This document shows, piece by piece, positions 12,090-44,952 of a stretch of DNA of 64,000 nucleotides. A program made the translations under genes and the position numbers. Origin of the DNA: Clostridiales bacterium (GTDB lineage Bacteria; Bacillota; Clostridia; Lachnospirales; WRAX01); the NCBI GenBank assembly GCA_031265685.1, contig JAISCI010000028.1, forward strand, positions 31-64,030. Reading direction: 5' to 3'. Each line of letters opens with the position of its first letter. Positions within the stretch are counted from its first letter, which is position 1. The notes beneath the pieces were generated by a model. It saw only the letters and a program-made list of their open reading frames with translations. It did not search any database and was not told where the DNA came from.

Positions 12090-12124
12090 TGTATAATTGG
12101 TTTTTATATTTACGCGCCCCCCTT

Positions 12125-19422: not shown

Positions 19423-19512
19423 GAATTTTGCATCGCATTATCGCTTGATGGAATTTTGCGTGAACCAAGCAAAATTCGTCCACGCGATAATGCTTCGAAC
19501 CGCGCAAAATTC
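19423..19512. repeat. Three-stem nested palindrome (X/Y word family)
   Basis: GAATTTTGC-ATC-GCATTATCG-7-GAATTTTGC-GTGAACCAA-GCAAAATTC-7-CGATAATGC-TTCGAACCGC-GCAAAATTC. Confidence 0.85.
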
Positions 19513-30628: not shown

Positions 30629-30686
30629 GTAGCGGTTGGCGGATCTTAATTATAATGGGCGGCGGATTTTTCAGTTGACAAATACA
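30629..30686. repeat. Copy 2 of the ~58-bp conserved sequence (see 29-86)
   Basis: GTAGCGGTTGGCGGATCTTAATTATAATGGGCGGCGGATTTTTCAGTTGACAAATACA, located 22 nt beyond the stop codon of the FrhB-like gene. Confidence 0.6.
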
Positions 30687-30707
30687 AGCTCGCCGAATGG
30701 CTCGCTT

Positions 30708-31897
30708 TCAGGCGTTTCCCTTCCTTAGCGCCGAGCGCGCCTTCCAGAGAGCGTACCGCGCCCAATTCACAGCCTCCTTCGGCACAAACCGCCGGATCAT
30801 ATTGGTTGCAGACTTTCCCGCCGTCTTTCTGTAAAGCTCGCCGAACGGCTCGCTGTCAAGCCCCGCGAAGAAATCCCCGCGCCGCTTATTTGTGCCGCTC
30901 GAAGCGTATATGCCGTGGTTGAAGGCGCAAGCTTCCCCAACGCTCGAAGCGATTGTATCGCAAAACGGCGCCAATCGCCCAAACAGCTCCTCGCCTTTGG
31001 CGGTATTTACCATGACGAGCGATACGCCCCGACCATCGTCGAAACGCCCGAGCATCTGCCTGCCGCCCCAGAAATCCCCTATGGTCACGTCCGCGCCCGA
31101 GCGAAATCCTTTGGCCGCGCAGTCGCGGCACGACGGCCGCAGGAACAGATTTACCATGAAGCCCAGCATGTACGGCGAATCGTCGTCCCGCTCCGTTTTG
31201 CCGTCAACAACCAGAAGCGTGTCGAGCGCGGTCTGCCAGCGCTTCCGCTTATGCCGGAACGCGAGGCCAGTCGGCGCGGAACCAAAACGCCGCGCCGCGT
31301 CTTTGATGTATTTGTCAAGAACTTTCTGGCTGGGCACGCCATGACATACAAAATCGACAATAGTCAAGCGGTCTCGGTTCACGCTGAATTCCGCCAAAAA
31401 GCGACGCAACCCCAGTGCCTGGCACGGCGTACCAGTGAAGAGGACGCGCTCGCCCCTGTCAAGAAATTCCTTGCAACGGACGTAACTGTCTCCGATGTCG
31501 GACTGTACATATTTGGAACCGCGAAAGCGTGCGTACGATCCATCCGTGACGAAGGAGTGCCGGCAGCGCATTCCGCGCATCTCGCTGCCAAATATTGCCC
31601 CCCCCCTATCATAAAGTCCTCAGCGATCAGCGAGAAAACGCCGCCCGAGGTGGACGCGCCGCGAATGGCGTCGTCTCGGGCTTTAACGCCCCAGACCGAG
31701 ATAGGGCCGCCGCCAAGGGCCAGCGACGCGTACTGGCAAACCCTCTCGCAGATCCCGCACTCGGAGCACCTGTCTTTTGCCGCGACAGGATACGCAAAGC
31801 CCTCTCCGTCGCTTACCATGGAAATGGCCCCATGCGGACACGCTGCCTGGCAGGCAGAGCATCCGCAGCAAGCCCCTTTATTAATTATATCAATCAT
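30708..31897 (-). pseudogene. Coenzyme F420 hydrogenase/dehydrogenase beta-subunit-like protein (N-terminal 2x[4Fe-4S] ferredoxin), interrupted by a frameshift in a G9 tract
   Basis: The N-terminal frame reads MIDIINKGACCGCSACQAACPHGAI...CSECGICERVC...TSGGVFSLIAEDFMIGGG. The C-terminal frame (30708-31580) resumes with ...FRGSKYVQSD...FTGTPCQ...VCHGVPS. One extra G would join them into about 396 aa. Confidence 0.8.
31598..31606 (-). repeat. Homopolymeric tract: C9 on the plus strand, G9 on the coding strand
   Basis: Read directly as ATTG-CCCCCCCCC-TATC. It sits exactly at the point where the frame changes. Confidence 0.95.
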
Positions 31898-33143
31898 CAG
31901 CCAACGCCCTTTCGAGATAATCGGCGGAGAACCGGCGCAACTCGCCCAGCGCGGCGTTGGACGCCGAGAAATCCACTTCCGCGGCGCCCGGCGTCAGCCA
32001 CTTAGACCAATCCCCGGACAGATCCGCCATGCGGTCCATCAGCCCGGTCTGCGACAGCAGCGAGGACGCCCGCTCGTTACGGTAACACGCGACCGCATAG
32101 AACGGGATATTGAAGTTGACGGCGAAAGCCGTGCCATGGAACGAATTGGTCACGACGAACCGCGCGCGGGCCAACAGCTCCACGAACCGCCTGGGATCGG
32201 CCGTGGATTCGTAGCGCGTGGATGGTGAAAGATCCGCCAGAAACCGCTGGTCGATGATAACGGGTGTAAGGCCCAGTATCTTCGCCAGCTTTTTGGCGAA
32301 GCCGTATACGCGCACACGGTTCGACAGCGCGTACACGACAAGCGTATCATCTCGGGATTTCGCCTGATTCACGCAAAATTCCCTTTCGTCCTCAATACCG
32401 AGCGAGGAGAGCCATTCCCCTCGCGTGAGCATCAGCGTCGGGTCAAGCGCGCAGACTGCCTCAATCCCCAGCGCCTCGCGGACTTTCCCGACATGCTGCG
32501 CTTCCCGCACGGAAACGGCGGAGTACGCCCGCAAATAACCCGCGATCCTCTCATTGACGGCTCGGTCGGCGAATTTATAGTTACCGAACGAAGCGGAATA
32601 CGCGACGCGCCTGACACCCTCGGGTAGGAATCCAAGGAAATAAACCGGCGTCACGCCGAAATACATCGGATTCCATATTTGGTCGCTGCCGCTTACCGCC
32701 GCGTCATAACCTGAAAATCCCTCGGCGACGCTTTCCTCCGCATACTCCTGTGTATAGGCTATGTACGTATCCCAAAACCTACGGTAATTCGCGATAAGGC
32801 GACGGCGCTTTCCGTAGTTGACAATATCGGAAACCATCCCGTAGACGCGGTTCATCAGTTCCGGCAACAGCTCGGACTTCTCGAGCTTAGCCGCTCCCCC
32901 GCCGATCTTTTTGCGCGAAAATACGGATCTCACTGTAGAAAAAGCTATCACTATGAATCCGACCCGCACCGGCCTAACGGTAGCGGCGACCATGCCGTGC
33001 CGGTAATCCAAGCACTTTACGTCAAAGCGGCGGCTCAGGCACGCGAACAGCGCGAACTCCTGCAGACTGCCGCCGTAGTTGACGTTACGGCTGAACGTTA
33101 CTAACAGTATCTTCCTCGCGCCCGGCTTCGGATTGTCTGACAA
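31890..33143 (-). CDS. Polysaccharide pyruvyl transferase family protein (CsaB/WcaK-like)
   Basis: ILLVTFSRNVNYGGSLQEFAL...GSDQIWNP...VVTNSFHGTAFAVNFNIPF matches the PS_pyruv_trans pattern. The start is TTG and overlaps the upstream gene. Confidence 0.8.
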   Translation of the reverse strand: MSDNPKPGARKILLVTFSRNVNYGGSLQEFALFACLSRRFDVKCLDYRHGMVAATVRPVRVGFIVIAFSTVRSVFSRKKIGGGAAKLEKSELLPELMNRVYGMVSDIVNYGKRRRLIANYRRFWDTYIAYTQEYAEESVAEGFSGYDAAVSGSDQIWNPMYFGVTPVYFLGFLPEGVRRVAYSASFGNYKFADRAVNERIAGYLRAYSAVSVREAQHVGKVREALGIEAVCALDPTLMLTRGEWLSSLGIEDEREFCVNQAKSRDDTLVVYALSNRVRVYGFAKKLAKILGLTPVIIDQRFLADLSPSTRYESTADPRRFVELLARARFVVTNSFHGTAFAVNFNIPFYAVACYRNERASSLLSQTGLMDRMADLSGDWSKWLTPGAAEVDFSASNAALGELRRFSADYLERALADD

Positions 33144-34107
33144 AGCGCTCGCCCTCCTTGACTATGTTAGTCTCGCGGCGAAGGTAGATCGGGCGGCGTT
33201 TAATCTCCATATATATGCGCGCTATGTATTCGCCGATTATCCCCAGCAGCGATATGACTATACCACCCAGAAACAGCATGATTATTATGGTTGTGGCGAA
33301 GCCGGACGTGACCGCCCCGTAAATCGCCGTCCGGAAAAAGATGAACAGCCCGTACGCGACAGCCGCGAGCACGACGACCGCGCCCAAAATATACGACAGC
33401 CGGAGCGGAGCGGTCGAGAACGCGACAATCCCCGAGACGGCATACTTGAGCAGGGACCAGAACGACCACTTGGACGTTCCGGCGGCGCGCGGCACGTGCT
33501 CATACTCGATCCATTTGACCTTGAACCCCACCCACTCGAATAGTCCTTTGGAGAAGCGCTCCCTCTCGCCCATCGCCAGCATGGCGTCCGCCACCGCCCG
33601 CGTCATCAGCCTGCAATCGCGCGCGCCCGGCTTCAGCTTGACGCTCGAAGCCTTGTTTATCAAGCGGTAAAACATGTTGGCGAAAAAGCTCCTTATGGGC
33701 GGTTCGCCTTTTCGGTCGGACCGGCACAGCGCCACGCAGTCGTAGCCCTCGTCTATCCCCTCCAGCATTTCCGGCAATACGCCCGGCGGATCCTGCAAAT
33801 CGGCGTCCATTATCGCCAGCAAGTCGCCCCGGCTCTCGCTGAATCCGGCGAACAGCGCGGCTTCTTTGCCGAAATTGCGCGAGAACGATATGTAGCGGAT
33901 ACGGTCGTTCCCATGCGTGAACGCCAGTTTCTTTATCTCGGCCAGCGTGTCGTCGCGGCTGCCGTCGTCCACGAACAGGATGGACCACGTGTACGGAAGA
34001 GGCGCCATGTCTTTCGCGAGCGCCTCGTAGAACAGCGGCACGCATTCCTCCTCGTTGTAGCACGGAACGATTACCTCGATATGCCGTTTATTGCTCACGC
34101 GATCCAT
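33085..34107 (-). CDS. GT2 polyprenyl-phosphate glycosyltransferase (GtrB/CsbB-like)
   Basis: IEVIVPCYNEEE...VDDGSRD...MDADLQDPP, followed by two C-terminal TM helices. Confidence 0.85.
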   Translation of the reverse strand: MDRVSNKRHIEVIVPCYNEEECVPLFYEALAKDMAPLPYTWSILFVDDGSRDDTLAEIKKLAFTHGNDRIRYISFSRNFGKEAALFAGFSESRGDLLAIMDADLQDPPGVLPEMLEGIDEGYDCVALCRSDRKGEPPIRSFFANMFYRLINKASSVKLKPGARDCRLMTRAVADAMLAMGERERFSKGLFEWVGFKVKWIEYEHVPRAAGTSKWSFWSLLKYAVSGIVAFSTAPLRLSYILGAVVVLAAVAYGLFIFFRTAIYGAVTSGFATTIIIMLFLGGIVISLLGIIGEYIARIYMEIKRRPIYLRRETNIVKEGERFVRQSEAGREEDTVSNVQP

Positions 34108-35356
34108 CCCCCTTTATTATGTAAATCATATTGATCACGAACACAGCTCCGCCGACCGACGCGACACAGACGGCGATCGCTTCCGGCGACGTCTGATTAT
34201 ACCCCAGCCAGAACGCCAGCGCCGCGCCCGCCACGCTCACCGCGAGCGGAAACCGCAGCCTGCCCCGCGCCACGGCATAGTTCATATTCAGCATATTGAG
34301 CGTCGTCGAAACGCCGATGGCGCACGAATAATTGATGTACCCGACCGCCGATATATACTTTCCCCCTACCAGAATCGACACGATCTGGCCGGGGAACAGC
34401 AGTATCGGCGCCATGAACACGGCGCTGGTAAGCAGGATGTACAGCAGCGCGCGCAGATACAGCGGGACGACCCCGCCCTTGTCCGACATGTTCGACCGGG
34501 AGACCATCGGCAGAAAGACGTTTATGAGCGCCGTAACCGCGAACACCAGTATCTTGCCGAACTGCGCCGCAGAGCCGTACAGCCCGGACACCCCCTCGTC
34601 GAAGCGTAGCCGAACGATGAGTACGTCCGAATACATCATGAACACGACGCACAGGTTGAGCGCGAGCGACGCGCCCAGCAAGCGGCCCCTCCTTACAGAT
34701 TCCCGCAGCCCGCCGATTGCCTCCGAAAACGAAGGCTTGTCCCCGCCCAGCTTACGGCGCAGGGCGAACCATCCGAATACGACGGCCAGCACGCTGCCCA
34801 GCGCCAGGAAGATCAGCATAGCGAACAGCCTGTCCCCGCCCGTCACGAACAGCACGGCGAAGCCTATGCCGGCCACTTTGAGAACGGCCTCGATCATGGT
34901 TATGACCGGCATTATCACGAAGCGCTGCAAACCCTGCGCGACACCCGTAGCGACATAGCGCGGGTACGCGACGGCGACGCACGCGGTCATGAGCGCGCAT
35001 AGCGCCAGACTTCCGACGCTCATAGCGCCGTCGATAACGGGCGACAACGCGAGACCGACGGCAAGCATACCGCACACGACGACAGCCGTAAACACCGCGA
35101 ACCCGGCGACAAACAGCCGCGATCCGCCCCCGCCGGACTCCTTCTCGGACACCGTCTTCGCGACGTACAGCTGAAACGCCTGCCCCGGCACGCCCAAGAT
35201 GAAGATAATGGATATTATCGTATTCAGCAATCCGTAATCCGCGACGGTGAGCGCCCGGGCGGACAGTATCTGGAAAGCGTAGTTGACGACATTAGTCAGC
35301 ATTGAAAAACCAAACAGCAACAGCGAGCGCTTTTCAAAGCTTGCCTCACTCTTCAA
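34088..35356 (-). CDS. MOP/Wzx-type polysaccharide flippase
   Basis: About 12-14 TM helices. The start is placed at TTG 35356, because the longer tracked N-terminus is Arg-rich and overlaps the yfhO 3' end. Confidence 0.7.
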   Translation of the reverse strand: MKSEASFEKRSLLLFGFSMLTNVVNYAFQILSARALTVADYGLLNTIISIIFILGVPGQAFQLYVAKTVSEKESGGGGSRLFVAGFAVFTAVVVCGMLAVGLALSPVIDGAMSVGSLALCALMTACVAVAYPRYVATGVAQGLQRFVIMPVITMIEAVLKVAGIGFAVLFVTGGDRLFAMLIFLALGSVLAVVFGWFALRRKLGGDKPSFSEAIGGLRESVRRGRLLGASLALNLCVVFMMYSDVLIVRLRFDEGVSGLYGSAAQFGKILVFAVTALINVFLPMVSRSNMSDKGGVVPLYLRALLYILLTSAVFMAPILLFPGQIVSILVGGKYISAVGYINYSCAIGVSTTLNMLNMNYAVARGRLRFPLAVSVAGAALAFWLGYNQTSPEAIAVCVASVGGAVFVINMIYIIKGDGSREQ

Positions 35357-38342
35357 GCGGACCGCCCTCTTCCGTCTCGGACTCCTCCGCGCCGACGATA
35401 TATTCGGCGGTGTACGGCAGTTCTTCGGCTGTATCCGTGAATTCCGCGCCGTCGTCCCCGTAAGCGCCGTCAGCCGGTTCCGGCCAGCCGGTCGGATCAC
35501 GCAAATCCTCTATCTCATCCGCCTCCGCGATCTCATCGCGCCCCTTAAACTCTTCGACCGGCGTGACGGGCGATTCGCTCTTCCCGCCCCGGCCCCTTCT
35601 CTTTCTCCCGCCAGGCAGCCTGATGATTGTTTCGCCGAAGAATGTCGCGAACAAAGCTATTCCCGAGACGGCGAACGACTCGGCCAAGCCGTATACGCGG
35701 AACTCAAGCCTTATATCGTGCCGCCCCGCCCGGACGCTGAAAGCCAGGAACGCTTCCGCGACCTTCTCCGTAGCCACCTCCGCGCCGTCCACATAGACAT
35801 GCCAGCGCTTGTCGTAAGGTATCGTCGTAAACATAACGCCGCCTCGGCCGGCGTTGACGAACCCCTCCACGTGAGTGTCGTCGTAGTGCGTAACCTCGAA
35901 CGGACTCCGGGACAGCTCGTCTATCGTCTCAAGGTAGCGCTCCTCGTCCATCTGGAACAGATCGACGAAGAACGTTCCCGATTCCCTCGACGCGACGACC
36001 GCCTCGCGTTCCCTGTCGTACAGTCCGAGCAGGAACAGCGGGTTCTGGCTCTTGGTCTCGTCGAGCGTCCGCTCCACGTACGCCGACTCCGGCTTCAGCG
36101 GGTTCTGGAAAAACAAGCCGAGCACAACCTCGTCTCCGGCTTCAAGTTTCCCCAAGCCGATTATCTCGTTCTGCGTGTTGATCTGTATGCCAGATATATT
36201 TTCCCCATTTATTTTGACATACACGCCTCTGAGATTGTCTATGTTCAGCGTCAGGAACGTCGAACGATTCGCCGGTATCTTAAAACGAAGGTACACATAA
36301 ATATGATCCGTAGTTTTTATGGTCGGCGAAACTTCATAAGTTCCTGAAATACCGTCATCACTCAACTCGACCGAACAGTTGCGGGTATACGCGCTTCCGT
36401 CAGATTTTATCGCGCCAAGGAGCAGATTACCCTCTATGCCCGCCAAAGCTTTCGCGAAGTCATTTTGGGTGCGCTTAGCCGTCTTCATGACGCTATACGG
36501 GTCGTAATCCAGAATATTCTTATCGACGACAAATCCGAGCGGCAATACTTTCGTGTTCTCGTAAAGCGTTACTTTGTCGAACACCGCCGCTTCCTCGTAA
36601 TACTCGGGCGGCTTGTTTCTGTTATACGCTCTGTTTATAGAGTATTTGACCGCGAACACGGAGTTGAGCAGCGGCGTAGGGAAACGATAGTCAATACGGC
36701 TCTGTGTCGCTCCAACTCCCAGATTCCTGCAGAACTCGGTGACGCTTTCATAGCTGATCGCAAACGAGGAAATGGAATTATAACCAAACAAGGATCCTCC
36801 GCTGGATAACCTCTTCGGAGACATATCCGCGCGGTATAAAGCGTCCTCCGCGCCAAGCAACTCGCTTACCTTCTCCATGTCGTCGTTCAGCTCTATAGCG
36901 TACTGCTCCCGTGTAGTCTCAACCATATGAATCTGCATATTCTTCGCCGCGCCCGTAGACACCTCGACAAGCGCTAACGCGAACACGAACCCAAGCAACA
37001 CCTTTCGGCGCTCCGGCACCCTCGACGCATAGTACAGCAACGCTACATATATCAGTATAAATACAAAATTCTCGAACACCGCCGCGACGGTTACGTAGCC
37101 CGAAAGACTCCATGAAACGGCGGGAAACATTATCCATAACAACACAACTCCGCCAAGCATTGCCAATGTCGTAATGCGGAAGCTTTTCAGCGGCACCGCC
37201 TGGATCTTTTCGAAGCTTTGCGCCGCAAGGAACAGCGTGAAGAAGCACATGATGAACAGCACCCTGTGCGGAAAGCCCGTCGGATAGCGCATACCGTTGA
37301 GAACGTAGCCCAGTATGTTGACCGAAGCCGCGAGAATGAGAAACAGCAGAACGCCGCCGTACACCAGCTTCTGTTTTTTGGGTATGGCCGGGTTGACGAA
37401 ATAGAACACCGCGAGCACAAGCGCGAACACTCCGACATATATATTGGGCGTACCGTTCGCGTTGGAGAGCAGAACCGACGGCGCTACGTCGAAGAGATAC
37501 CCTGTGAGCACCTGCGGTATTGAGAAAAAGAATTCCAGCGGGGGTATGGAAGAACCCGCCGAGGCGTACTTGGTGTTTCCGAGCAACAGCGCCGCCGGAA
37601 CCAGCACTACCCCAGCTATCCCAACCGCGAGAACAGACGACACGGCGTATTTGAGAATCGTCTTCCAGTAATACGCGCGGCTCTGGCTCTCCTTAAGGTA
37701 CAGCTCGGCAATGAAATACAGCCCGGAGAAGACGCACAGGAACATCCCGAAAAGATAATTCGTTATGATGGCCGCGCCCAGGACGACAGCGTAAAATTTA
37801 TATTTGCCGTCTTTTATAATATTATCCACGCCGACCGCTACGAGCGGGAGCATCGCTATGCAGGGCAGCCAATAAAACACCACGAAATAAGCCGTCACAA
37901 AAGACGACAGCCCATAAGCGATTGACAGCGCTATCGCGACGATATCCCCGCGCCCGAAGCGTTTCTTCATATAATAAGCGAAGCCCGCCGATATCGCCGG
38001 AATATGTATCAGGTAATAGAGCGAAAAGAATTCCGTTATATATTCGTTACCGAACAGCGGCGCCAGCAATACGAACGGGTTCATCAGCGACGTTATCATT
38101 AGCAGATAATTGTCAACGCCGAACTGCGCCTGCCATGTATAAAAGGGACTGCCGCCCTCGGTGAGTCGGCGCGCCAGCTCGGCTATACGCGGCGCGTACG
38201 ATTGAAACGAGTCGTAGAATAAAACGTGCCTGTCGCCGAACGGATATACCCACGCGAGCATGTAGACGAGAATCACGATCCCCATCGTTATGATATACGA
38301 CAGGAATATTGCCGAGCCGAAAAACCGTTTGAGTCCGTTCAT
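35346..38342 (-). CDS. yfhO: YfhO-family (GT-C type) membrane glycosyltransferase with a long extracytoplasmic C-terminal domain
   Basis: Translation from ATG 38342 gives MNGLKRFFGSAIFLSYII...VYPFGDRHVLFYDSFQSYAP. It has about 13 TM helices, is about 998 aa, and pairs with the CsbB-like GT2. Confidence 0.8.
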   Translation of the reverse strand: MNGLKRFFGSAIFLSYIITMGIVILVYMLAWVYPFGDRHVLFYDSFQSYAPRIAELARRLTEGGSPFYTWQAQFGVDNYLLMITSLMNPFVLLAPLFGNEYITEFFSLYYLIHIPAISAGFAYYMKKRFGRGDIVAIALSIAYGLSSFVTAYFVVFYWLPCIAMLPLVAVGVDNIIKDGKYKFYAVVLGAAIITNYLFGMFLCVFSGLYFIAELYLKESQSRAYYWKTILKYAVSSVLAVGIAGVVLVPAALLLGNTKYASAGSSIPPLEFFFSIPQVLTGYLFDVAPSVLLSNANGTPNIYVGVFALVLAVFYFVNPAIPKKQKLVYGGVLLFLILAASVNILGYVLNGMRYPTGFPHRVLFIMCFFTLFLAAQSFEKIQAVPLKSFRITTLAMLGGVVLLWIMFPAVSWSLSGYVTVAAVFENFVFILIYVALLYYASRVPERRKVLLGFVFALALVEVSTGAAKNMQIHMVETTREQYAIELNDDMEKVSELLGAEDALYRADMSPKRLSSGGSLFGYNSISSFAISYESVTEFCRNLGVGATQSRIDYRFPTPLLNSVFAVKYSINRAYNRNKPPEYYEEAAVFDKVTLYENTKVLPLGFVVDKNILDYDPYSVMKTAKRTQNDFAKALAGIEGNLLLGAIKSDGSAYTRNCSVELSDDGISGTYEVSPTIKTTDHIYVYLRFKIPANRSTFLTLNIDNLRGVYVKINGENISGIQINTQNEIIGLGKLEAGDEVVLGLFFQNPLKPESAYVERTLDETKSQNPLFLLGLYDREREAVVASRESGTFFVDLFQMDEERYLETIDELSRSPFEVTHYDDTHVEGFVNAGRGGVMFTTIPYDKRWHVYVDGAEVATEKVAEAFLAFSVRAGRHDIRLEFRVYGLAESFAVSGIALFATFFGETIIRLPGGRKRRGRGGKSESPVTPVEEFKGRDEIAEADEIEDLRDPTGWPEPADGAYGDDGAEFTDTAEELPYTAEYIVGAEESETEEGGPLEE

Positions 38343-38390
38343 TTGCGCGTGTCCCCCCAATAAAATCTCTATGTGCCTTTTTTAACATCA

Positions 38391-38429
38391 GTCAGTAATT
38401 AACGGGTGCGAAGCCCGTTAATTACTGAC
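38391..38429 (-). terminator. Stem-loop downstream of the SLH gene, a possible terminator or processing site
   Basis: GTCAGTAATTAACGGG-TGCGAAG-CCCGTTAATTACTGAC is a perfect 16-bp stem. No clear U-run follows on the minus strand. Confidence 0.5.
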
Positions 38430-38453
38430 CCGCCCCAAATACGGGCTATAAAT

Positions 38454-39800
38454 TTAGAACCCCAGAGCCGGCGTCTCGTCGTAGAAACCTGCCGCCGTAT
38501 AATCCTCATCCTCATAAGCGCTGTTAACCTTGCCGCTGTTAACCTTGCTGCGGAACGCGAGGGTTTTTTTAGCCGCCTCGGCGGGCGCTTCTTCGGAACT
38601 GCTGACGCCTGAATCAACATCGCTTATCACGCCAAGATCAATCGTGATGGCGACCTTAATCTCGGGATCAACCGGGATTATGACTACCCTAAGTTCCGCC
38701 TCGTTATGCGCGGAAGTGGGCGTGAATTCATCGCCCTCTTCGACAGTTACCCACGTCTGGCCGCCGTCTGTCGATATCTGCCACAGTATCCTGACCTTGC
38801 TGTTGCTCGTCAGGGCGTCCGGGGCTTGTACTGATCCGCTGATTGTGATGCTGCCTATCAGCGCCTCTAACTCGCCCCTCGCTTCCAGCACTTCCTCCTC
38901 GGTGATTATGGACTCCCCGTCCTCGTCCGTAATTTCATTCCCGCCGTCTTCGTACTCTCCAAGTTCCCCCAGATCAATCACATCTACAGGCGGCTCGGAG
39001 GTCGGAACCGGAGCCGACGTAGCCGGAGCCGCTGTCGGAGCCGCTGTAGCCGGAGCCGACGTCGAGGGCGTATCGGTGCTGGGCCTGTGCCAGCCCTGCG
39101 CGCCGCTTCCTCCCCCGCTGCCGGCGGGCGCGGCTGTTGGCGCGCTTGATGCCGGAGCTGTCGGAGCTACCGCCACGCCCGGGGTGGCCAGCGCCACTAC
39201 CAGTATCTCGGCGCGGCTTATCGTGCGCGTCGGACGAAGCGTGTTGTCCTCAGGGTACCCGCCGATTACGCCCGCCCCCACAAGGTAGCGGAAAGCGTTA
39301 GCGTAACGGGACGACACGAGGGACGCGTCCGAGAACCGCGTGATGGAATCCCCAGCTTTGGGGGCGGGGCTTCCCATCAGCGTGTAAAGCCACAGGAACG
39401 CGTCCTGCCGCGTGATGTTGACGCCGGGATTGAAGGCGCCCTTTGACGGCGCCGTTTTGGTTATGTATCCGAACGCCTCGGCGTCCGCCACGATCTGGTA
39501 ATACCAGGCGCCGGGCAGAACGTCGGTGTAGCTGGGCGTGTTTTTCGTCTCCGGCACTTTGTAGTACCGATTGTAAATACTGACAAGCTCTACGTTTGTC
39601 ACCTTATCGTCCGGTCTGAAAAGATCGCCCGTAGTATTGATTATGTCTTTGTCCGCCCCGCTGATGATGCTCGCCTGCGCCCAGTGCCCGGATATATCAT
39701 TGAAAACGGGAGCGCCGGAAGCAATCGGCGACAAAACTAAGGCAAGAACCAAAACCACGCTCAAGGCAAACGATCCCAGGTAAAGCTTTCCCTTCCTCAA
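38454..39800 (-). CDS. Cell-wall-anchored protein with three N-terminal SLH domains, a P/A/T/S linker and an acidic C-terminal domain
   Basis: Translation from TTG 39800 (GGAGAGG RBS 9 nt upstream) gives the signal peptide MRKGKLYLGSFALSVVLVLALVLSPIASGA. SLH motifs follow: FNDISGHWAQ..., YTDVLPGAWYY..., FSDASLVSSRYANAFRYLVGAGVIGGY. Confidence 0.85.
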   Translation of the reverse strand: MRKGKLYLGSFALSVVLVLALVLSPIASGAPVFNDISGHWAQASIISGADKDIINTTGDLFRPDDKVTNVELVSIYNRYYKVPETKNTPSYTDVLPGAWYYQIVADAEAFGYITKTAPSKGAFNPGVNITRQDAFLWLYTLMGSPAPKAGDSITRFSDASLVSSRYANAFRYLVGAGVIGGYPEDNTLRPTRTISRAEILVVALATPGVAVAPTAPASSAPTAAPAGSGGGSGAQGWHRPSTDTPSTSAPATAAPTAAPATSAPVPTSEPPVDVIDLGELGEYEDGGNEITDEDGESIITEEEVLEARGELEALIGSITISGSVQAPDALTSNSKVRILWQISTDGGQTWVTVEEGDEFTPTSAHNEAELRVVIIPVDPEIKVAITIDLGVISDVDSGVSSSEEAPAEAAKKTLAFRSKVNSGKVNSAYEDEDYTAAGFYDETPALGF

Positions 39801-39833
39801 TACAATGCACCTCTCCTGCAATCTCCGTCTGTT

Positions 39834-39935
39834 CGCTCGGAAAAGCAGGTTCGCGACGCCTGATCTCAGGGTGAACGAGTCCGGCTAAAATTCCCAATCC
39901 TTCTAATGTCACGCGGATTGAGCCACATATCTTGA
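39834..39935 (-). repeat. 5'-leader repeat, unit 1 (proximal to the SLH start)
   Basis: About 100 nt, matching 40047-40146. The first 40 nt (CGCTCGGAAAAGCAGGTTCGCGACGCCTGATCTCAGGG) differ at one position. Confidence 0.85.
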
Positions 39936-40046
39936 CTAATTCTCGTGGCGGCCTACCATTAAGAGTATGCCACTTCCGCGTTATCCACCCCCTGCCGAAC
40001 ATAGCTTCACAATATGATACGCCTCTTTTGCGATCATCCGGCCATC

Positions 40047-40146
40047 CGCTCGGAAAAACAGGTTCGCGACGCCTGATCTCAGGGCAAACGGAACCGAATA
40101 AAATCCCCAATCCCGCCAATATCACGATGATTGGGCCGCATCTTAA
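40047..40146 (-). repeat. 5'-leader repeat, unit 2 (distal)
   Basis: A direct repeat of 39834-39935 at a 213-nt period. Confidence 0.85.
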
Positions 40147-40178
40147 ATAAATCCTCATGGTGACCTGCCATCACAATG

Positions 40179-40210
40179 AGTATAACATTTCCACCCCCCC
40201 CCCCTGTCAA
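40179..40210 (-). promoter_or_regulatory. Near-consensus SigA promoter with a G11 tract in the spacer, upstream of the SLH gene
   Basis: The minus strand reads TTGACA-GGGGGGGGGGG-TGGAAATGT-TATACT, with TGT-TATACT forming an extended -10. The spacer as read is 20 nt, against an optimum of 17. Confidence 0.6.
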
Positions 40211-40987
40211 GCAAAATTTCTCAATTTTTCGTGCTGTACACGGATAAGCAAAATGCCGAAATAACGGGATTGCGGGGGGATAGCGGACTATTTTCAGCGT
40301 CTGACGCAATATTAACGCAATAAAAACTATAAACTAACGGCGGCAGAGATGAGATGGAATCAATCGCAAACTTATGACGGGGAACGCGATGGGAGAAATT
40401 GTTGCTATGAGTTACTATAAAACCGCAAAAGCGCCTTAGATAAAAAGCTGTGTATTTCGCCTGCGAACAACAAAAATGATCCTGAAACAAGCGCAACAGT
40501 TATGCAAAATTACGAATTCTCCGAAAAGCGTTGCTGGATAATAGGCACAACTCAGATTAAGCGGTAACGCTACGGGAACAATCACTTGAAAACAGAGGGT
40601 ACGCCCTGGGACGCGCAACTGAATCTACTCGGATTTCATTGAACTGAATCTATACTGACGGATGAAAGATACGCGTAAAAGAAAAACGGCGTTGGTTGGC
40701 GAGCGGAGGCGCCGTAAATTTATACTTTTCACGCCGCCAACATCACGCCAAAGAACGAAACAGACGCTCCATATACCCCGGAGATTCAGCTATTCTGTCA
40801 CCTTCCTAAATATTGGCGGTCGGGGGAATGCCCCAAATTAAGCTTGACATAATCGAGTTAGAAGTGATAGACTATAGAGTTATGGCTGCATGCGAGCTGT
40901 CGGCAGCAATTTCTATCAGATTAGGTCAGCCGCCGACACCAACAACGGACGCCGCCTTATCCGGCGTCCGTTGTTGTAAGTTCTACG

Positions 40988-42331
40988 CTATTGCCGCGCT
41001 TCCAGCTTCACCATGATGGTAAGATTTCCCTTTCCCCGGATCAGCTTCACCTCTACCTCGTCGCCGATCTCGCATCCGCGAACCTCCTGAGTCAGCTGCT
41101 CGCTCGTCAGAATCGGCATACCGTTGAACCCGGTAATGACGTCATTCTCCTCAATCCCGGCCTTATCCGCGGGCGACCCGTCCACAACGCCGCTTACGAA
41201 GGCGCCCGCCGAGGGCAGGTTGTACTGCTTCGCCGTCTCGTCGTTTATCGTCGAGACCGTTACGCCGAGATACGGTTTGTTGATCGAGTCCATAATGCTC
41301 TGGATAATCGGCTGGGCGATGTTCGAGGGGATGCTGTATCCCATGCCCTCCGTGTCAGTCTGCTCGATCTTGGCGGTGTTGATGCCGATCACCTTGCCGG
41401 AGAGGTTGATAAGCGGCCCTCCCGAGTTGCCGGGGTTGATCGCGGCGTTAGTCTGCAGCACCACCAGATCGCGCCCCTCGACCGATATTTCCTTATTCAT
41501 GGCGCTGACGATACCGTTGGTAGCGGTATTGCCCTCACCGAGAGCGTTGCCGATCGCGAGCACCTCGTCGCCGACGCGCAGCCCGTCGGAGTTGCCGAAC
41601 TCCGCTATGACGGCTGTTTCGACGCCCGCCTCCCTGGCGTCGGCCTTGGCCACGGACGCAACCGCCAGATCCTGGGCGGAATCGAAGCCGACAATCGCCG
41701 CTGGGATCGGCTCGCAACCCGAAATAGACACCGATACGCCCGAGGCGTCCTGCACGACGTGGTAGTTCGTCACGATATAATATTTCTGGTCGTTCTCATG
41801 AAACAGTATTCCCGAGCCAAGCCCCGTGGACCGTCCGCCGAAATAATCCCCGAACCCGCCGTAGCCGCCGTACCCTCCGCCCTCGACCGTAGAGACTATC
41901 GACACCACCGACGGCTCCACATTGTCGATGATGGCGGCGTATCCGACGCGCGGTTGGGCGGCCGTATCGCTGACGACGGACGAACTTTGCTTGAATATGT
42001 CGCCCGATACGACCGGGACCGCCGTCGGATCAGGCTCGGGCGCCGCGGCCAGCGCCCCCGGCAGAATCGCCTCCGCGACTCTCTGTCCGAAGCCTACGCT
42101 GAACCCGAAACTCGGCGCCGCTATCAGCGCCGCGACGACGACCAGCGCCAGCGCTCGCTTGAACGTCTGACTGCGGCGCTTGTCGCCGTCGCGCTTGACG
42201 GTCTCCTTATAGAACGGCTCCGGCTCGGGCGGCTCGGCGCTCGCCGGAGCGTAGACCAGCTCGCCGGAGGGCGTTTCTTCCCGTTGTTCCCCAGGGCGCT
42301 CCCCGTCAAACTCATCCTCAAAATATGTCAT
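40988..42331 (-). CDS. htrA: HtrA/DegP-family serine protease (trypsin-like domain plus PDZ), membrane-anchored
   Basis: Contains TNYHVV, DLAV, GNSGGPLIN and a C-terminal PDZ domain. One N-terminal TM helix. Confidence 0.9.
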   Translation of the reverse strand: MTYFEDEFDGERPGEQREETPSGELVYAPASAEPPEPEPFYKETVKRDGDKRRSQTFKRALALVVVAALIAAPSFGFSVGFGQRVAEAILPGALAAAPEPDPTAVPVVSGDIFKQSSSVVSDTAAQPRVGYAAIIDNVEPSVVSIVSTVEGGGYGGYGGFGDYFGGRSTGLGSGILFHENDQKYYIVTNYHVVQDASGVSVSISGCEPIPAAIVGFDSAQDLAVASVAKADAREAGVETAVIAEFGNSDGLRVGDEVLAIGNALGEGNTATNGIVSAMNKEISVEGRDLVVLQTNAAINPGNSGGPLINLSGKVIGINTAKIEQTDTEGMGYSIPSNIAQPIIQSIMDSINKPYLGVTVSTINDETAKQYNLPSAGAFVSGVVDGSPADKAGIEENDVITGFNGMPILTSEQLTQEVRGCEIGDEVEVKLIRGKGNLTIMVKLEARQ

Positions 42332-42345
42332 GCCGTTTCCCTCCC

Positions 42346-43584
42346 CTAAAAGTCAAGCCCCTTGTTTTTGAGCGTAACGGTTACTTCCTGCGCCTGCCTT
42401 CCGCCGCGCGTTATCGAAACCTTCAGCTTGTCGCCGACATTGCTCTTCTGCACGGACTCGGTAAGCTGTTCGGACGTCGCGATAGTCTTGCCGTCGATAG
42501 CCGTTATGATGTCCCCTTGGCGAAGTCCCGCGTCCGCCGCGCTCGACCCGGGCTGCACGTAATTGATATAGACGCCGACCGAAGGCAGGTTGTACATCCA
42601 TTTCAGCTGTTCCGTCACGGTCACGGTCTCGACGCCGAGATAGGGCGTGGACGTTTTGCCGGCGCTAACGATGCTGTCGGCGATCTCGGCCACGGTGTTT
42701 GATGGTATCGCGTACCCCATGCCCTCGATGCCGACCGACGACAGCTTGGCGGTGTTTATCCCGATGACATGGCCGGACGTATCGACGAGCGCCCCGCCCG
42801 AGTTGCCGGGATTGATCGCCGCGTCGGTCTGTATCGTCGTGATCAGCTGGTCGTCCTCTGTCTTGATCTTCTTGTCCACGGCGGAAATGATTCCGAATGT
42901 CGCGGATTTGCCCTCGCCAAGGGCGTTGCCGATCGCGACGACGAAATTGCCGACCTCTATCTTGGATGAATCCGCGAACACCGCCGCGTTGTACTGCCCC
43001 TTGAAGTTTTTCTCCATCTCCGCCTTAGGCGCGGATATAACCGCTATGTCGTTGGACTCGCTGCCGCCGACGTAGTTGGCGGAGACGCTCGTCGTATCGT
43101 CTAGCGAGACCTCGCAGCTGGTGGCGCCGTTGATGACATGGTAGTTGGTCAGGATGTAAACCTTATCGTCGTCCTGCTTGAAAATTATGCCGCTGCCCGC
43201 GCCGCTCGTCTCGTACTGCTGATTGAACCATCCCGCGACCGTCACCTTGACACTGATGGAGACCACGCTCTTCGCGACGGTCTTGTAGATGTCCGAGACC
43301 AGCGCCGCGCCGTCTCCGGACAGCGCGAGATATGTAGGCGCGGAACTATTCTCCGTGACCGTCATCGCCGCCGATACCGACGTGCCGGCAGGAGCGATCG
43401 CCCGTCCCACGGACAGACCTATCCCGAAACATCCGCTGCCGACGGCGACGGTCAGCAGCAGCGCCGTCACGGCTCGGAGCGCCTTCCCGCCGCGGAGATC
43501 CCGCCTGGCCTTCGGCGCGCTCTGGCTCGCGACCGGCACCGCCGGGATGATCTCGTATCCAAAATCGTCGTTGTCGTATACCAT
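42346..43584 (-). CDS. htrA: HtrA/DegP-family serine protease, tandem paralog
   Basis: Contains TNYHVI, DIAV, GNSGGALVD and a PDZ domain. One N-terminal TM helix. Confidence 0.9.
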   Translation of the reverse strand: MVYDNDDFGYEIIPAVPVASQSAPKARRDLRGGKALRAVTALLLTVAVGSGCFGIGLSVGRAIAPAGTSVSAAMTVTENSSAPTYLALSGDGAALVSDIYKTVAKSVVSISVKVTVAGWFNQQYETSGAGSGIIFKQDDDKVYILTNYHVINGATSCEVSLDDTTSVSANYVGGSESNDIAVISAPKAEMEKNFKGQYNAAVFADSSKIEVGNFVVAIGNALGEGKSATFGIISAVDKKIKTEDDQLITTIQTDAAINPGNSGGALVDTSGHVIGINTAKLSSVGIEGMGYAIPSNTVAEIADSIVSAGKTSTPYLGVETVTVTEQLKWMYNLPSVGVYINYVQPGSSAADAGLRQGDIITAIDGKTIATSEQLTESVQKSNVGDKLKVSITRGGRQAQEVTVTLKNKGLDF

Positions 43585-44267
43585 ATCCTGGCCTTCCTCT
43601 CCGATAGTTGGTAAGATCGTATCCTGTTTTTATCTATGGCCTTAGTATACCTCCCGATTTTTACGAATATTAGCGGATTTTGTGTCTAAATTGTAAACAT
43701 TGGGCTCGGATGATTTCTTAATTACAGCGGCGGTGTGGGGAGTGTCAAAATTCAAGCTGCGGTCGTTTGAAAGAAATTGATGAGAGTAAGGGGAAGCCCG
43801 GAGTATTTGCGCAGGCGGGTTTGGCTTGCCGGCTTGCGGTCGGATAGCTTTTGGCTTGGACTTGTACGCGCCTGTGTATTACAATCGAAAAATCGGCCAG
43901 TCAAGTTGTGCGCCAACACAAATGACAGCAAAATAATTATCTATCCTACAAAAACTAATCGTTACAACCCGTTATCCGCCGTTGTTCAGTGTTTAATTAT
44001 GCATTATCAGCGTTTCCCGCCGTTACCGGACCGCTCGTAAAACACGTATTGTCGGCACGTTTTTTATCGCTACAAACGACATTAACCATTCAAAAAGTGT
44101 CTACAAAAACTCGTAGACACTTTCAACCTCATACATTTACCGCCCTCTCAGCCTAGCTCAATTTCCTGTCCGCGATACGGATTACGGCGTCGGAAATCCG
44201 CGGCTGTTCTCACGGTCACTTAAAAGACGCTTCTTTCAATTCTCTTATGGAAATTTCAAACACGCTT

Positions 44268-44373
44268 GAATTTTGCGTGAATTGAAGCATTATCGTGTGG
44301 TTTGAACACGTGAAGCGCCTCAACCCGAGGGCTTACGAACATGACAGAATTTTGCTTGATTCACGCAAAATTC
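44268..44373. repeat. X/Y-word repeat block (partly degenerate)
   Basis: GAATTTTGC-GTGAATTGAA-GCATTATCG-TGTGGTTTGAAC ... GAATTTTGC-TTGATTCAC-GCAAAATTC. Confidence 0.75.
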
Positions 44374-44383
44374 GCTCACCATT

Positions 44384-44653
44384 GTGGCGCACAGGCTGGC
44401 CGCTATCGCCGTGAGTGAGGCCAGGGCGGCGCTGGACGGAGCCGGCGCGCTGAATGCGCCAATTCTACCCGGCGTCTATTCGCTGTCGCCGGTTGCGTCT
44501 GCCCGGCGTGTTCATCCGACGGAAAAGCCGCTGATGAATTTTGCGGGTTCAGGCAAAATTCAGGCGCTTATGCGCGAACTGGTAAAGATTGCTGGCAACC
44601 GCTTTGTACGCGTACGAGGTTTTGACGATTCAAACGCGCCAGAGCGTTGTTGA
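44384..44653 (+). pseudogene. Fragment of an N4/N6 DNA methyltransferase (HPTxKP motif) carrying a hairpin-module insertion
   Basis: ...ARRVHPTEKPL[MNFAGSGKIQ]ALMRELVKIAGN.... The bracketed residues are encoded by GAATTTTGC-GGGTTCAG-GCAAAATTC (44536-44561). The flanking catalytic regions are absent or degenerate. Confidence 0.5.
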
Positions 44654-44692
44654 AGGGGTTCGCAAAATAAGTTGAGGGGGTTCGCAAAATAA
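44649..44692 (+). repeat. Tandem 22-bp direct repeat, two copies
   Basis: GTTGAAGGGGTTCGCAAAATAA followed by GTTGAGGGGGTTCGCAAAATAA. Confidence 0.9.
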
Positions 44693-44862
44693 AAGGGAAG
44701 AAATACCCGGTAGGCAAGATCGAATCGGCGCTTGATGAGTTTGGTTATTTTGGCAAAGTATTTTCTGGGGCATAAAATGCGACTTTATTTATTTTGCGGG
44801 AGGCAACGAAATGGCGACTAAGAGCGTTATGAAAATCGTTACAGTGCGGAGTGAACGCGCCA

Positions 44863-44952
44863 TGAATTTTCGCGGGTTCGAAGCATTATCGCTTGGACGA
44901 ATTTTGCTTGGATCCGCAAAATTCCATCACGCGATAATGCGATGCGAAAATT
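44863..44952. repeat. Three-stem nested palindrome (X/Y word family)
   Basis: GAATTTTCGC-GGGTTCGAA-GCATTATCG-7-GAATTTTGC-TTGGATCC-GCAAAATTC-7-CGATAATGC-GAT-GCGAAAATTG. Confidence 0.85.

What the first reader, a model, noticed from the sequence alone, without database searches (positions are those of the whole stretch)
31598..31606. G9 homopolymer splits the FrhB-like gene next to the polysaccharide pyruvyl transferase: candidate phase-variable switch
The N-terminal 2x[4Fe-4S] / FrhB_N-like part (31897 down to about 31600, ending ...FSLIAEDFMIGGG) and the FrhB_C-like part (31580-30708, ...FRGSKYVQSD...CHGVPS...) are in different frames. The change happens exactly at a run of nine C (plus strand).

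Reading ten G on the coding strand gives a continuous ~396-aa protein (...MIGGGAIFGSEMRGMRCRHSFVTDGSY...).

FrhB-like proteins are regular partners of pyruvyl transferases in surface-polysaccharide loci. Slipped-strand mispairing at poly-G tracts is an established ON/OFF mechanism for surface-glycan modification genes in other bacteria. The alternative is a homopolymer sequencing or assembly error.
Basis: partly seen in the sequence, partly recalled or inferred. Interest (0 to 1): 0.6.

Follow-up and report, generated by a model that had tools for sequence, protein, structure and literature searches.

The report
Poly-G frameshift in surface-glycan gene
A run of nine G bases really does break an otherwise intact redox-enzyme gene at the end of a cell-surface sugar-modification operon in an uncultured gut-type Clostridia, and a second run of eleven G sits in that operon's promoter. 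This looks like a slippage-driven ON/OFF switch caught OFF, but with only one sample no switching could be shown.

Summary
Window 31598-31606 holds nine G on the coding (minus) strand. The run splits a FrhB-family gene (31897-30708). G10 restores a 396-aa protein that aligns with homologues without a gap.

A second, independently made assembly (Logan, SRR14710922) is identical over 9,540 bases, G9 included. An assembler slip is therefore unlikely.

The gene carries no other lesion and keeps all 58 family-invariant residues. Two of them, F103 and G104, cannot be made by either fragment of the G9 allele.

The tract stands out. The window has no G/C runs of 7 or 8, only this G9 and a G11. Seven other Gly-Gly-Gly tripeptides in the checked genes, and the two homologues with Gly-Gly-Gly at this site, all use mixed codons.

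The G11 (40194-40204) lies between a perfect TTGACA and TGtTATACT upstream of the same operon. That operon encodes an SLH protein, YfhO/PgfM-like and PgfS-like glycosyltransferases, a pyruvyl transferase and the FrhB-like gene.

Best reading: a slipped-strand contingency locus sampled in the OFF state (about 0.5). Rivals are a recent fixed frameshift, a shared read-level error, and recoding.

No second sample of this organism exists in any collection searched, so tract-length variation is untested. It is a new member of a known kind, of moderate interest.

The parts
31598..31606 (-). G9 homopolymer (C9 on the plus strand) inside the FrhB-like gene. It is read as GGG GGG GGG. G10 or G7 would be in frame; G10 is the length that matches the family.
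30708..31897 (-). FrhB-family gene (2x[4Fe-4S] plus FrhB_FdhB_C), last gene of the operon. The G9 breaks it into a 172-aa N-terminal product (31897-31379) and a 290-aa C-terminal ORF (31580-30708). There are no other stops or frameshifts.
31890..33143 (-). Polysaccharide pyruvyl transferase (PF04230). Its stop overlaps the FrhB-like start codon by 8 nt, which suggests translational coupling. It is only distantly CsaB-like (32 bits against a cut-off of 213).
33085..34107 (-). GT2 glycosyltransferase, PgfS-like / ArnC-like (polyprenyl-phosphate sugar synthase type).
34088..35356 (-). Membrane protein with many hydrophobic segments and no family hit. It sits where homologue loci have a Wzx-type flippase, so 'flippase' is inferred from position only.
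35346..38360 (-). YfhO-family (GT-C type) membrane glycosyltransferase, PgfM1/PgfM2-like.
38454..39800 (-). Secreted protein with three S-layer-homology (SLH) stretches and a Ser/Thr/Pro/Ala-rich linker. First gene of the operon and a possible glycosylation substrate (inferred).
40194..40204 (-). Second homopolymer, G11, forming most of the spacer between the -35 and -10 of the only strong sigma-70-like promoter upstream of the operon.
40179..40210 (-). Promoter-like site: TTGACA (40210-40205), G11 + TGGAAATGT, TATACT (40184-40179) preceded by TG. The spacer is 20 nt at G11, 17 nt at G8 and 18 nt at G9.

Best explanation
The G9 run is a hypermutable mononucleotide repeat inside the last gene of a cell-surface glycosylation and pyruvylation operon. 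Slipped-strand mispairing during replication adds or removes one G. G10 gives the full 396-aa FrhB-like iron-sulfur/flavin oxidoreductase (ON). G9 truncates it after residue 100 (OFF).

The sampled population is predominantly OFF. Because the gene is last in the operon and coupled to the pyruvyl transferase, switching would change only the FrhB-dependent step of glycan modification and would have no polar effect on the other genes.

A second repeat, G11, lies in the -35/-10 spacer of the operon promoter. It would tune or silence transcription of the whole operon by changing spacer length.

Shown: the tract, the frames, the intact flanks, agreement between two assemblies, outlier statistics, the promoter anatomy and the operon content.

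Inferred: that the length actually varies in this organism, that switching is selected, the chemistry of the FrhB-like step, and the effect of the G11 on transcription.
For: 1. The tract is real and reproducible. The Logan contig L001 is identical to window 30657-40196, G9 included.
2. G10 aligns to 25 homologues with no gap, whereas G7 would need a one-residue deletion. All 58 invariant columns are kept on both sides of the tract, and there is no second lesion.
3. The G9 allele cannot encode invariant F103 and G104 in either fragment, so it is a true OFF state.
4. Long G/C runs are otherwise absent. None of length 7 or 8 occurs, and 0.12 runs of 9 or more are expected.
5. GGG makes up only 24% of Gly codons. 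The 7 other Gly-Gly-Gly tripeptides in the 11 gene segments checked all use mixed codons.
6. Only 2 of 238 homologues have Gly-Gly-Gly at this site. Both come from DNA of about 58% GC and both use mixed codons with no run.
7. The tract lies in the first quarter of the gene (codons 98-100 of 396).
8. The only other long run in the window, G11, lies in the same operon between TTGACA and TGtTATACT.
9. The context is surface glycan modification.
In an Alistipes polysaccharide locus whose FrhB-like gene carries an in-frame G9, two neighbouring genes differ between samples. One is G9 (175 aa) in most samples and G8 (120 aa) in one. The other is G9 (330 aa) in some samples and G11 (252 or 247 aa) in two.
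11. The tract meets field criteria. The usual cut-off is 7 or more G/C, G9 is the modal length in C. jejuni, and homopolymers of 8 or more are mostly variable in N. meningitidis (PMC6321876, PMC3401435, PMC5084427).
Against: - No tract-length variation was observed for this tract. The organism appears in one sample only, and no ON allele was found.
- Both assemblies probably come from the same reads, so they do not exclude a read-level bias.
- The Alistipes FrhB-like G9 itself was seen only in frame. No C-terminal fragment appeared among the best 120 hits. That locus therefore supports poly-G switching of neighbouring genes, not of FrhB-like genes.
- The tract is not conserved in the family, so it could be a lineage-specific accident.
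- At G11 the promoter spacer is 20 nt. If that length is correct, the whole operon may be silent, and the frameshift could simply be drift.
Confidence: 0.5

Rival explanations
1. Recent, effectively fixed loss of function. A one-base deletion at a mutational hot spot inactivated a dispensable accessory gene in this lineage. The tract has no evolved switching role, and the gene is a young pseudogene.
For: - Only the OFF allele is seen.
- The tract is lineage-specific and absent from homologues.
- The promoter spacer at G11 is 20 nt, outside the usual 16-18 nt, so the operon may not be expressed and the gene may be under relaxed selection.
Against: - There is no second lesion in 396 codons, and all invariant residues are kept.
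- The other five operon genes are intact.
- A G9 run remains able to revert by its nature.
- Two outlier runs in one operon are hard to explain by accident: 0.12 runs of 9 or more are expected per 64 kb, and both observed runs fall in the same 10 kb.
Confidence: 0.25
2. Sequencing artefact. The true tract is G10 and the gene is intact. A systematic undercount of a long G run in the reads was carried into both assemblies.
For: - Both assemblies appear to derive from one sample.
- The Logan contig ends inside the G11 tract, at window 40196, which shows that long G runs were troublesome in this data set.
Against: - Two different assemblers agree on every one of 9,540 + 2,249 bases, G9 included.
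- The window shows no other broken gene despite 65 G/C runs of 5-6 and 143 A/T runs of 5-6.
- Poly-G tracts of this size are reported to be read accurately on Illumina (PMC6321876). The sequencing platform of this sample was not verified.
- The Logan graph passed the G9 without a break, unlike the G11.
Confidence: 0.12
3. Recoding. The G9 allele is expressed through -1 ribosomal frameshifting on G GGG GGG, or through transcriptional slippage on the run. Either would yield exactly the G10-type protein (MIGGGAIFG...).
For: - A -1 slip on the last two GGG codons puts GCA next, reproducing the family-consistent sequence (derived).
- An 8-9 bp GC-rich hairpin starts 6-7 nt after the tract, with dG -13.5 kcal/mol.
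Against: - The hairpin is no more stable than shuffled controls (z = 0.11; 104 of 200 shuffles fold at least as well).
- None of the roughly 240 homologues listed shows a split gene apart from this organism's own fragment.
- From my own knowledge, G-only heptamers are not established efficient shift sites, and transcriptional slippage is best documented for A/T runs.
Confidence: 0.05

Closest known systems
Intragenic poly-G/C contingency loci in capsule, LOS and flagellar-glycan modification genes of Campylobacter jejuni (also Neisseria lgt genes and Helicobacter fucosyltransferases)
   Same: A G/C mononucleotide run of about 9 in the 5' part of a glycan-modifying gene. A change of one base toggles the reading frame. 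Nine is the modal tract length in C. jejuni (PMC3401435, PMC6321876). The gene is accessory and lies in a surface-glycan locus.
   Different: The host is an uncultured spore-forming Clostridia, not a mucosal Gram-negative pathogen. The target is a FrhB-like Fe-S oxidoreductase, not a transferase. Switching has not been observed here.
Promoter-spacer homopolymers such as the poly-G between -35 and -10 of Neisseria meningitidis porA, and the TA repeats of Haemophilus hifA/hifB
   Same: The G11 lies entirely within the -35/-10 spacer, so each gain or loss changes the spacing of the hexamers (PMC3899988).
   Different: At the assembled length the spacer is 20 nt, three more than optimal. A TG-extended -10 is present and might make the -35 partly dispensable. 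The promoter is predicted from sequence only, and the G11 length itself is uncertain because one assembly breaks there.
FrhB/FdhB-family proteins encoded next to polysaccharide pyruvyl transferases in polysaccharide loci
   Same: Same domain content (2x[4Fe-4S] plus FrhB_FdhB_C) and 36-41% identity to the 25 aligned homologues. A PS_pyruv_trans gene lies within two genes in 5 of the 6 distinct loci examined.
   Different: The function of this pairing is not described in the literature I could search. Here the locus is a Pgf/YfhO-type glycosylation operon with an SLH protein, not a classical Wzx/Wzy capsule locus. This copy is frameshifted.
Streptococcus mutans Pgf protein-glycosylation system (PgfS, PgfM1, PgfM2), and the CsbB/YfhO-type teichoic-acid glycosylation systems (the latter recalled from my own knowledge)
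   Same: The GT2 scores 309 bits on the PgfS model. The YfhO protein scores 215 and 148 bits on the PgfM2 and PgfM1 models.
   Different: All scores are far below the equivalog cut-offs (500, 1500, 1400), so these are relatives, not orthologues. The pyruvyl transferase, the FrhB-like gene and the SLH protein are additions.

Membership tests
SSR-mediated phase-variable (contingency) locus | A simple sequence repeat at or above the length known to be hypermutable (7-8 or more G/C), within an ORF or promoter | tested here: met
   G9 at 31598-31606 inside the ORF and G11 at 40194-40204 in the promoter spacer. Cut-offs are from PMC6321876 and PMC5084427.
SSR-mediated phase-variable (contingency) locus | A change of one repeat unit converts a complete ORF into a truncated one, with no other lesion | tested here: met
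   G10 gives 396 aa and G9 gives 172 aa. All 58 invariant columns are kept.
SSR-mediated phase-variable (contingency) locus | Repeat length varies within a population or between closely related strains | not testable with these tools
   Only one sample holds this organism. The next homologue is 42% identical, and both contig collections gave no match. No raw reads are available.
SSR-mediated phase-variable (contingency) locus | High-frequency, reversible switching of the phenotype | not testable with these tools
   This needs culture, a reporter, or single-colony amplicon sequencing.
SSR-mediated phase-variable (contingency) locus | The tract is over-represented relative to genome background and to codon usage | tested here: met
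   Runs of 9 or more are expected 0.12 times per 64 kb, and two are observed, both in one operon. The 7 other Gly-Gly-Gly tripeptides in the genes checked use mixed codons. Homologues with Gly-Gly-Gly at this site have no run. The background is 64 kb only, not the whole genome.
FrhB/FdhB family (coenzyme F420 hydrogenase/dehydrogenase beta-subunit-like) | FrhB_FdhB_C domain above Pfam's gathering score, plus an N-terminal ferredoxin-type 2x[4Fe-4S] module | tested here: met
   PF04432 at 71.3 bits (cut-off 23.3), Fer4 at 31 bits and Fer4_9 at 29.7 bits. The family profile matches 8rja_E and the F420-dependent sulfite reductase N-terminal half. It is not an FpoF or FrhB equivalog (31 bits against a cut-off of 475).
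Programmed -1 ribosomal frameshift site | A slippery heptamer X XXY YYZ in the zero frame whose -1 reading gives the conserved protein | tested here: met
   G GGG GGG followed by CAA. The -1 reading gives GCA ATA TTT, that is ...GGGAIFG.
Programmed -1 ribosomal frameshift site | A downstream stimulatory structure more stable than expected, at 5-9 nt | tested here: inconclusive
   A hairpin is present 6-7 nt downstream (-13.5 kcal/mol), but z = 0.11 against shuffles.
Programmed -1 ribosomal frameshift site | The frameshift arrangement is conserved among relatives | tested here: not met
   All other homologues listed are single ORFs of about 360-440 aa. The tract is absent at this site in the homologue DNA examined.
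Decayed pseudogene | Multiple inactivating lesions or loss of conserved residues | tested here: not met
   There is a single frameshift only, and the invariant residues are intact.
Promoter-spacer SSR switch (porA type) | The repeat lies between recognisable -35 and -10 hexamers, so its length sets the spacer | tested here: met
   TTGACA-G11-TGGAAATGT-TATACT with TG upstream of the -10. The spacer is 20 nt now and would be 16-18 nt at G7-G9. No other minus-strand sigma-70-like site was found between the tract region and the first gene.
Promoter-spacer SSR switch (porA type) | Transcript level changes with repeat number | not testable with these tools
   There are no expression data and no second allele.

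The most novel reading that the evidence does not exclude
An uncultured Clostridia (GroEL at most 81% identical to any species representative, nearest Eubacteriales and Defluviitaleaceae MAGs) may control one surface-glycan operon with two nested slippage switches. A G-tract in the promoter spacer would act as a volume or ON/OFF control for the whole operon of SLH protein, Pgf-like glycosylation and pyruvylation genes. An intragenic G-tract would independently toggle only the FrhB-like redox partner of the pyruvyl transferase. The population would then display at least three surface chemistries: no glycan, glycan with the FrhB-dependent modification, and glycan without it. This would extend SSR contingency loci to anaerobic Gram-positive commensals. 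It would also give a natural ON/OFF handle on the uncharacterised FrhB-pyruvyl-transferase partnership.
Probability: 0.3. Interest if true: 0.6.

Novelty: new member of a known kind. Interest (0 to 1): 0.45.

Why it matters
Slipped-strand switches are textbook for a few mucosal pathogens but are hardly documented in anaerobic Firmicutes. There, phase variation is usually ascribed to invertible promoters.

If confirmed, this operon would show that uncultured gut-type Clostridia also diversify their surface glycans with poly-G tracts, and at two levels in one operon.

It would also mark the widespread but functionally unassigned FrhB-like partner of polysaccharide pyruvyl transferases as a dispensable, switchable modifier. 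Comparing glycans from ON and OFF cells could then reveal what it does.

There is a practical point too. Such tracts break genes in MAG annotations (here NCBI and JGI each call only a C-terminal fragment) and should not be read as pseudogenes by default.

Tried and rejected
1. Looking for other strains or samples to compare tract length.
- A protein search with the repaired gene found only this organism's own fragment at 100% identity; the next hit was 42%.
- Exact look-ups found one Logan contig and one 73.8-kb JGI/NCBI contig.
- A variable-gap DNA scan of metagenome contigs found nothing.
- A protein-pattern scan of genome contigs found nothing.
- Comparative tract data therefore do not exist in these collections.

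2. Reading the Logan contig break at the G11 tract as evidence of length heterogeneity. I rejected this as proof. The break comes after only 3 G, which is not where length variants of 8-12 would branch a k-mer graph (my assumption that Logan uses k = 31 is from memory). Another Logan contig ends at an ordinary sequence. The break only shows that the G11 was hard to assemble.

3. Programmed frameshift. A hairpin is present but is not better than shuffles.

4. Two functional half-proteins. Rejected because invariant F103 and G104 are encoded by neither fragment, because the C-terminal ATG has no properly spaced Shine-Dalgarno sequence (my reading), and because no homologue is naturally split.

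5. A structured RNA in the 390-nt leader. Rfam found nothing and the fold z-score is -0.16.

6. Testing whether the Alistipes FrhB-like G9 has OFF alleles. No truncated variant appeared among the top 120 hits, and the one extra contig found also had G9. This is negative for that gene. The neighbouring genes in that locus are polymorphic.

7. A literature search for the function of FrhB-like proteins paired with pyruvyl transferases found nothing specific.

8. A general homopolymer error problem in the assembly. Rejected because the window is densely coding and has no other split gene.
Full report
**What is there**

On the minus strand the sequence reads ...GAG GAC TTT ATG ATA GGG GGG GGG CAA TAT TTG..., with exactly nine G at window 31606-31598.

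The reading frame that starts at ATG 31897 encodes a ferredoxin-like 2x[4Fe-4S] module. It runs through ...SSSGGVFSLIAEDFMIGGG, then continues out of frame for 73 codons to a stop at 31379. The FrhB_FdhB_C-containing part is in a different frame, as an ORF from 31580 to 30708.

Adding one G gives a single 396-aa ORF, and removing two gives 395 aa. G8, G11 and G12 remain broken. Pfam on the repaired protein finds Fer4 (residues 4-26), the Fer4_9/Fer4_7 dicluster (residues 9-56) and FrhB_FdhB_C (residues 150-307; 71 bits, cut-off 23).

**Which length is the 'ON' length**

I aligned the repaired protein with 25 homologues of 36-41% identity. The G10 product (F-M-I-G-G-G-A-I-F-G) matches the family pattern (V/I-I-x-x-G-G-V-V-F-G) with no gap, whereas G7 would need a deletion.

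Fifty-eight columns are invariant across all 26 sequences, this protein included, and they lie on both sides of the tract. Two of them, F103 and G104, fall just after the tract. With G9 they are out of frame in the N-terminal product. They also lie upstream of the first ATG of the C-terminal ORF.

The G9 allele therefore cannot make a complete enzyme without recoding. There is no second stop or frameshift anywhere in the gene.

**Is it an assembly error?**

The exact C-terminal fragment occurs in three sources. They trace to one 73,765-nt contig (JGI/IMG, and NCBI MAG 'Clostridiales bacterium', MDR1209098.1) and to a Logan assembly of run SRR14710922.

The Logan contig L001 (9,540 nt) is identical, base for base, to window 30657-40196, nine G included. 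L002 (2,249 nt) is identical to window 40575-42823. Two assemblers therefore agree.

The window is densely coding and has no other split gene, although it holds 65 G/C runs and 143 A/T runs of 5-6 bases. This argues against a general homopolymer problem.

A bias in the reads themselves cannot be excluded, because both assemblies most likely used the same reads. Tellingly, L001 ends inside the other long run (G11), so long G runs were not trouble-free in this data set.

**Is the tract more than chance?**

G/C run lengths in the window fall off geometrically: 1111, 286, 55 and 10 for lengths 3-6. There are none of length 7 or 8, and then one of 9 and one of 11.

Extrapolation predicts 0.12 runs of 9 or more and 0.005 runs of 11 or more. 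GGG is only 24% of glycine codons. All seven other Gly-Gly-Gly tripeptides in the eleven gene segments checked are written with mixed codons.

At the protein level the third glycine is unusual. Only 2 of 238 homologues have Gly-Gly-Gly at this position. In both, in DNA of similar GC content (58%), the codons are mixed (GGA GGC GGA; GGG GGA GGC) and there is no run. The tract is thus a lineage-specific feature that runs against local codon habits.

**The surroundings**

The gene is the last of six on the minus strand.

| Window coordinates | Product | Evidence |
|---|---|---|
| 39800-38454 | Secreted SLH-domain protein with a Ser/Thr/Pro/Ala-rich linker | |
| 38360-35346 | YfhO-family membrane glycosyltransferase, PgfM2/PgfM1-like | |
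| 35356-34088 | Membrane protein with many hydrophobic segments, no family hit | |
| 34107-33085 | GT2, PgfS-like (309 bits) | |
| 33143-31890 | Polysaccharide pyruvyl transferase | |
| 31897-30708 | FrhB-like gene | |

The pyruvyl transferase stop overlaps the FrhB-like start by 8 nt. This is a surface glycosylation and pyruvylation operon.

A LytR-CpsA-Psr gene lies nearby, and GroEL and a spore germination protease are elsewhere in the window. GroEL is at most 81% identical to any GTDB species representative. The nearest are Eubacteriales and Defluviitaleaceae MAGs. The organism is therefore an uncultured Clostridia without close sequenced relatives.

**A second tract in the same operon**

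The only other long run in the window, G11 at 40204-40194, lies about 390 nt upstream of the first gene. The context is GAAATTTTGC-TTGACA-GGGGGGGGGGG-TGGAAATGT-TATACT.

That is a perfect -35 and a 5/6 -10 preceded by TG, separated by 20 nt. At G7-G9 the spacer would be 16-18 nt, and the site would score 11/12. That is better than any of the 12 sigma-70-like sites the scanner found in this 10-kb region. The scanner found no other minus-strand site between here and the first gene.

This is the anatomy of the porA-type promoter-spacer switch (PMC3899988). Its assembled length is less certain than that of the G9, because one assembly breaks there.

**Partnership with pyruvyl transferases**

In five of the six distinct homologue loci examined, the FrhB-like gene lies within two genes of a PS_pyruv_trans gene in a polysaccharide locus. 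Three of those five also carry a Polysacc_synt (Wzx-type) flippase gene next to it. The sixth locus is cut by a contig end on the upstream side.

I found no paper that assigns a function to this pairing. By sequence the protein is an FrhB-type flavin/Fe-S redox module. It matches 8rja_E and the N-terminal half of F420-dependent sulfite reductase. It is far below the FpoF and FrhB equivalog cut-offs.

A reductive step on the pyruvyl-derived substituent is a reasonable guess, but it is only a guess.

**Precedent found here**

The Alistipes homologue (P0054) carries its own in-frame G9, at a different site (KGGGN before VLFSGTPCQ). Its 7.8-kb locus holds three G9, three A9 and one G9/G11 site.

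Across ten contigs from different samples, two neighbouring genes change state with tract length.

| Gene | Tract and product in most samples | Variant |
|---|---|---|
| Hexapeptide acetyltransferase | G9, 175 aa | G8, 120 aa, in L017 |
| Acyl_transf_3 | G9, 330 aa, in five samples | G11, 252 or 247 aa, in L011 and L016 |

Poly-G length polymorphism with ON/OFF consequences therefore does occur in glycan-modification genes of a locus of this general type.

The Alistipes FrhB-like tract itself was seen only at G9. The look-up fixes it at that length, an extra contig also had G9, and no truncated variant appeared in a protein search. That locus supports the mechanism, not the specific target.

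**Weighing the explanations**

The tract meets the working criteria used in the field. The cut-off is 7 or more G/C, G9 is the modal length in C. jejuni with high measured switching, and homopolymers of 8 or more are mostly variable in N. meningitidis (PMC6321876, PMC3401435, PMC5084427).

Five further points favour a slipped-strand contingency locus sampled OFF, at about 0.5:
- the flanks of the tract are intact;
- the tract is a statistical and codon-usage outlier;
- it sits near the 5' end of the gene;
- the gene belongs to a surface-glycan operon;
- a partner tract lies in the operon's promoter.

A recent fixed frameshift without an evolved switching role (about 0.25) differs mainly in population dynamics. 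It is favoured if the 20-nt spacer means the operon is silent.

A shared read-level undercount (about 0.12) is disfavoured by the agreement of two assemblers and by the reported accuracy of Illumina on tracts of this size. It is not excluded, and the sequencing platform was not verified.

Recoding (about 0.05) is formally possible. A -1 slip on G GGG GGG yields exactly the G10 protein, and a hairpin starts 6-7 nt downstream. But the hairpin is no better than shuffles (z = 0.11), and no relative shares the arrangement.

**What is missing**

The defining property, length variation of this tract, could not be tested. The decisive test is a read pile-up at both tracts in SRR14710922 and related runs.

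**Verdict**

It is a new member of a known kind (an SSR contingency locus) in an unusual host. Two points add interest: a second tract in the operon's promoter, and a switchable FrhB-like partner of a pyruvyl transferase whose function is unknown. Interest 0.45.

Noticed in passing
window 40179-40210 (minus strand): A G11 run (40194-40204) fills the spacer between a perfect TTGACA and TGtTATACT upstream of the SLH/YfhO/GT2/pyruvyl-transferase/FrhB operon. The spacer is 20 nt at G11 and 17 nt at G8. The independent Logan contig ends inside this run.
   Followed up: partly
window 39824-39928 and 40037-40141: Two direct copies of a 105-nt unit (80% identical, 213 nt apart) lie in the 390-nt leader between the promoter and the SLH gene. 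An ORF (40158-39697, 153 aa, no family hit) reads both copies as GLGIL.G.V.PEIRRREP.FPS. There is no Rfam match and no unusual RNA stability (z = -0.16).
   Followed up: partly
window, 26 sites including 1168-1192, 1859, 3183-3208, 5339-5426, 8328-8418, 18343, 19452-19476, 40208-40218, 44269-44910, 59827-59852: An interspersed palindromic repeat family with core GAATTTTGC-N8-GCAAAATTC, often followed by GCATTATCG...CGATAATGC. AATTTTGCTTG with up to 1 mismatch occurs 26 times against 0.9 expected. Most sites fall in the gaps of a rough ORF map. A half-copy supplies the -35 of the operon promoter. It could be a REP/MITE-like element or a regulator's operator; this is unresolved.
   Followed up: partly
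window 43650-46400: A 2.8-kb stretch with no ORF of 90 aa or more, lower GC (about 48-52%), no tRNA and no Rfam hit. It contains several copies of the palindromic repeat above and a 22-nt tandem duplication at 44649-44692.
   Followed up: partly
window 8327-8420: A tandem array of 2.8 copies of a 33-nt unit (GAATTTTGCTTGGTTCACACAAAATTCTCATCG). Each unit contains the same palindrome. It lies between two genes.
   Followed up: no
L011-L020 (Alistipes polysaccharide locus; L011 sites 605, 3802, 3971, 4931, 5025, 5105, 7633): A 37%-GC, 7.8-kb locus with three G9, three A9 and one G9/G11 site inside glycan-modification genes. Tract length differs between samples and changes the called gene length (G8 versus G9 in a hexapeptide acetyltransferase; G9 versus G11 in an acyltransferase-3). 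One sample has an extra GGA codon before the run.
   Followed up: partly
L011-L020, 5' ends: All ten contigs from different samples and assemblers end 41-158 nt upstream of the Alistipes FrhB-like gene. This suggests a repeated, invertible or strain-variable element immediately upstream.
   Followed up: no
L005:12337 (GCA_045580045.1): A G9 run lies at the junction of a hexapeptide-repeat acetyltransferase gene (11898-12374) and the next gene (12371 onward), in another FrhB/pyruvyl-transferase polysaccharide locus.
   Followed up: no
window 30686-30703 and 30834-30851 (minus strand): Just after the FrhB-like stop codon, the sequence AGCGAGCCATTCGGCGAGCTTGTA repeats an internal piece of the gene (AGCGAGCCGTTCGGCGAGCTTTACA, encoding SEPFGELY). 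It may be a remnant of an earlier 3' end or a small duplication.
   Followed up: no
window 53484-55568 (minus strand): An IspH (LytB) domain fused to four S1 RNA-binding domains (694 aa). Together with GroEL (24829-23210) and a germination protease (5414-4104), this marks the contig as chromosomal DNA of a spore-forming Clostridia.
   Followed up: no
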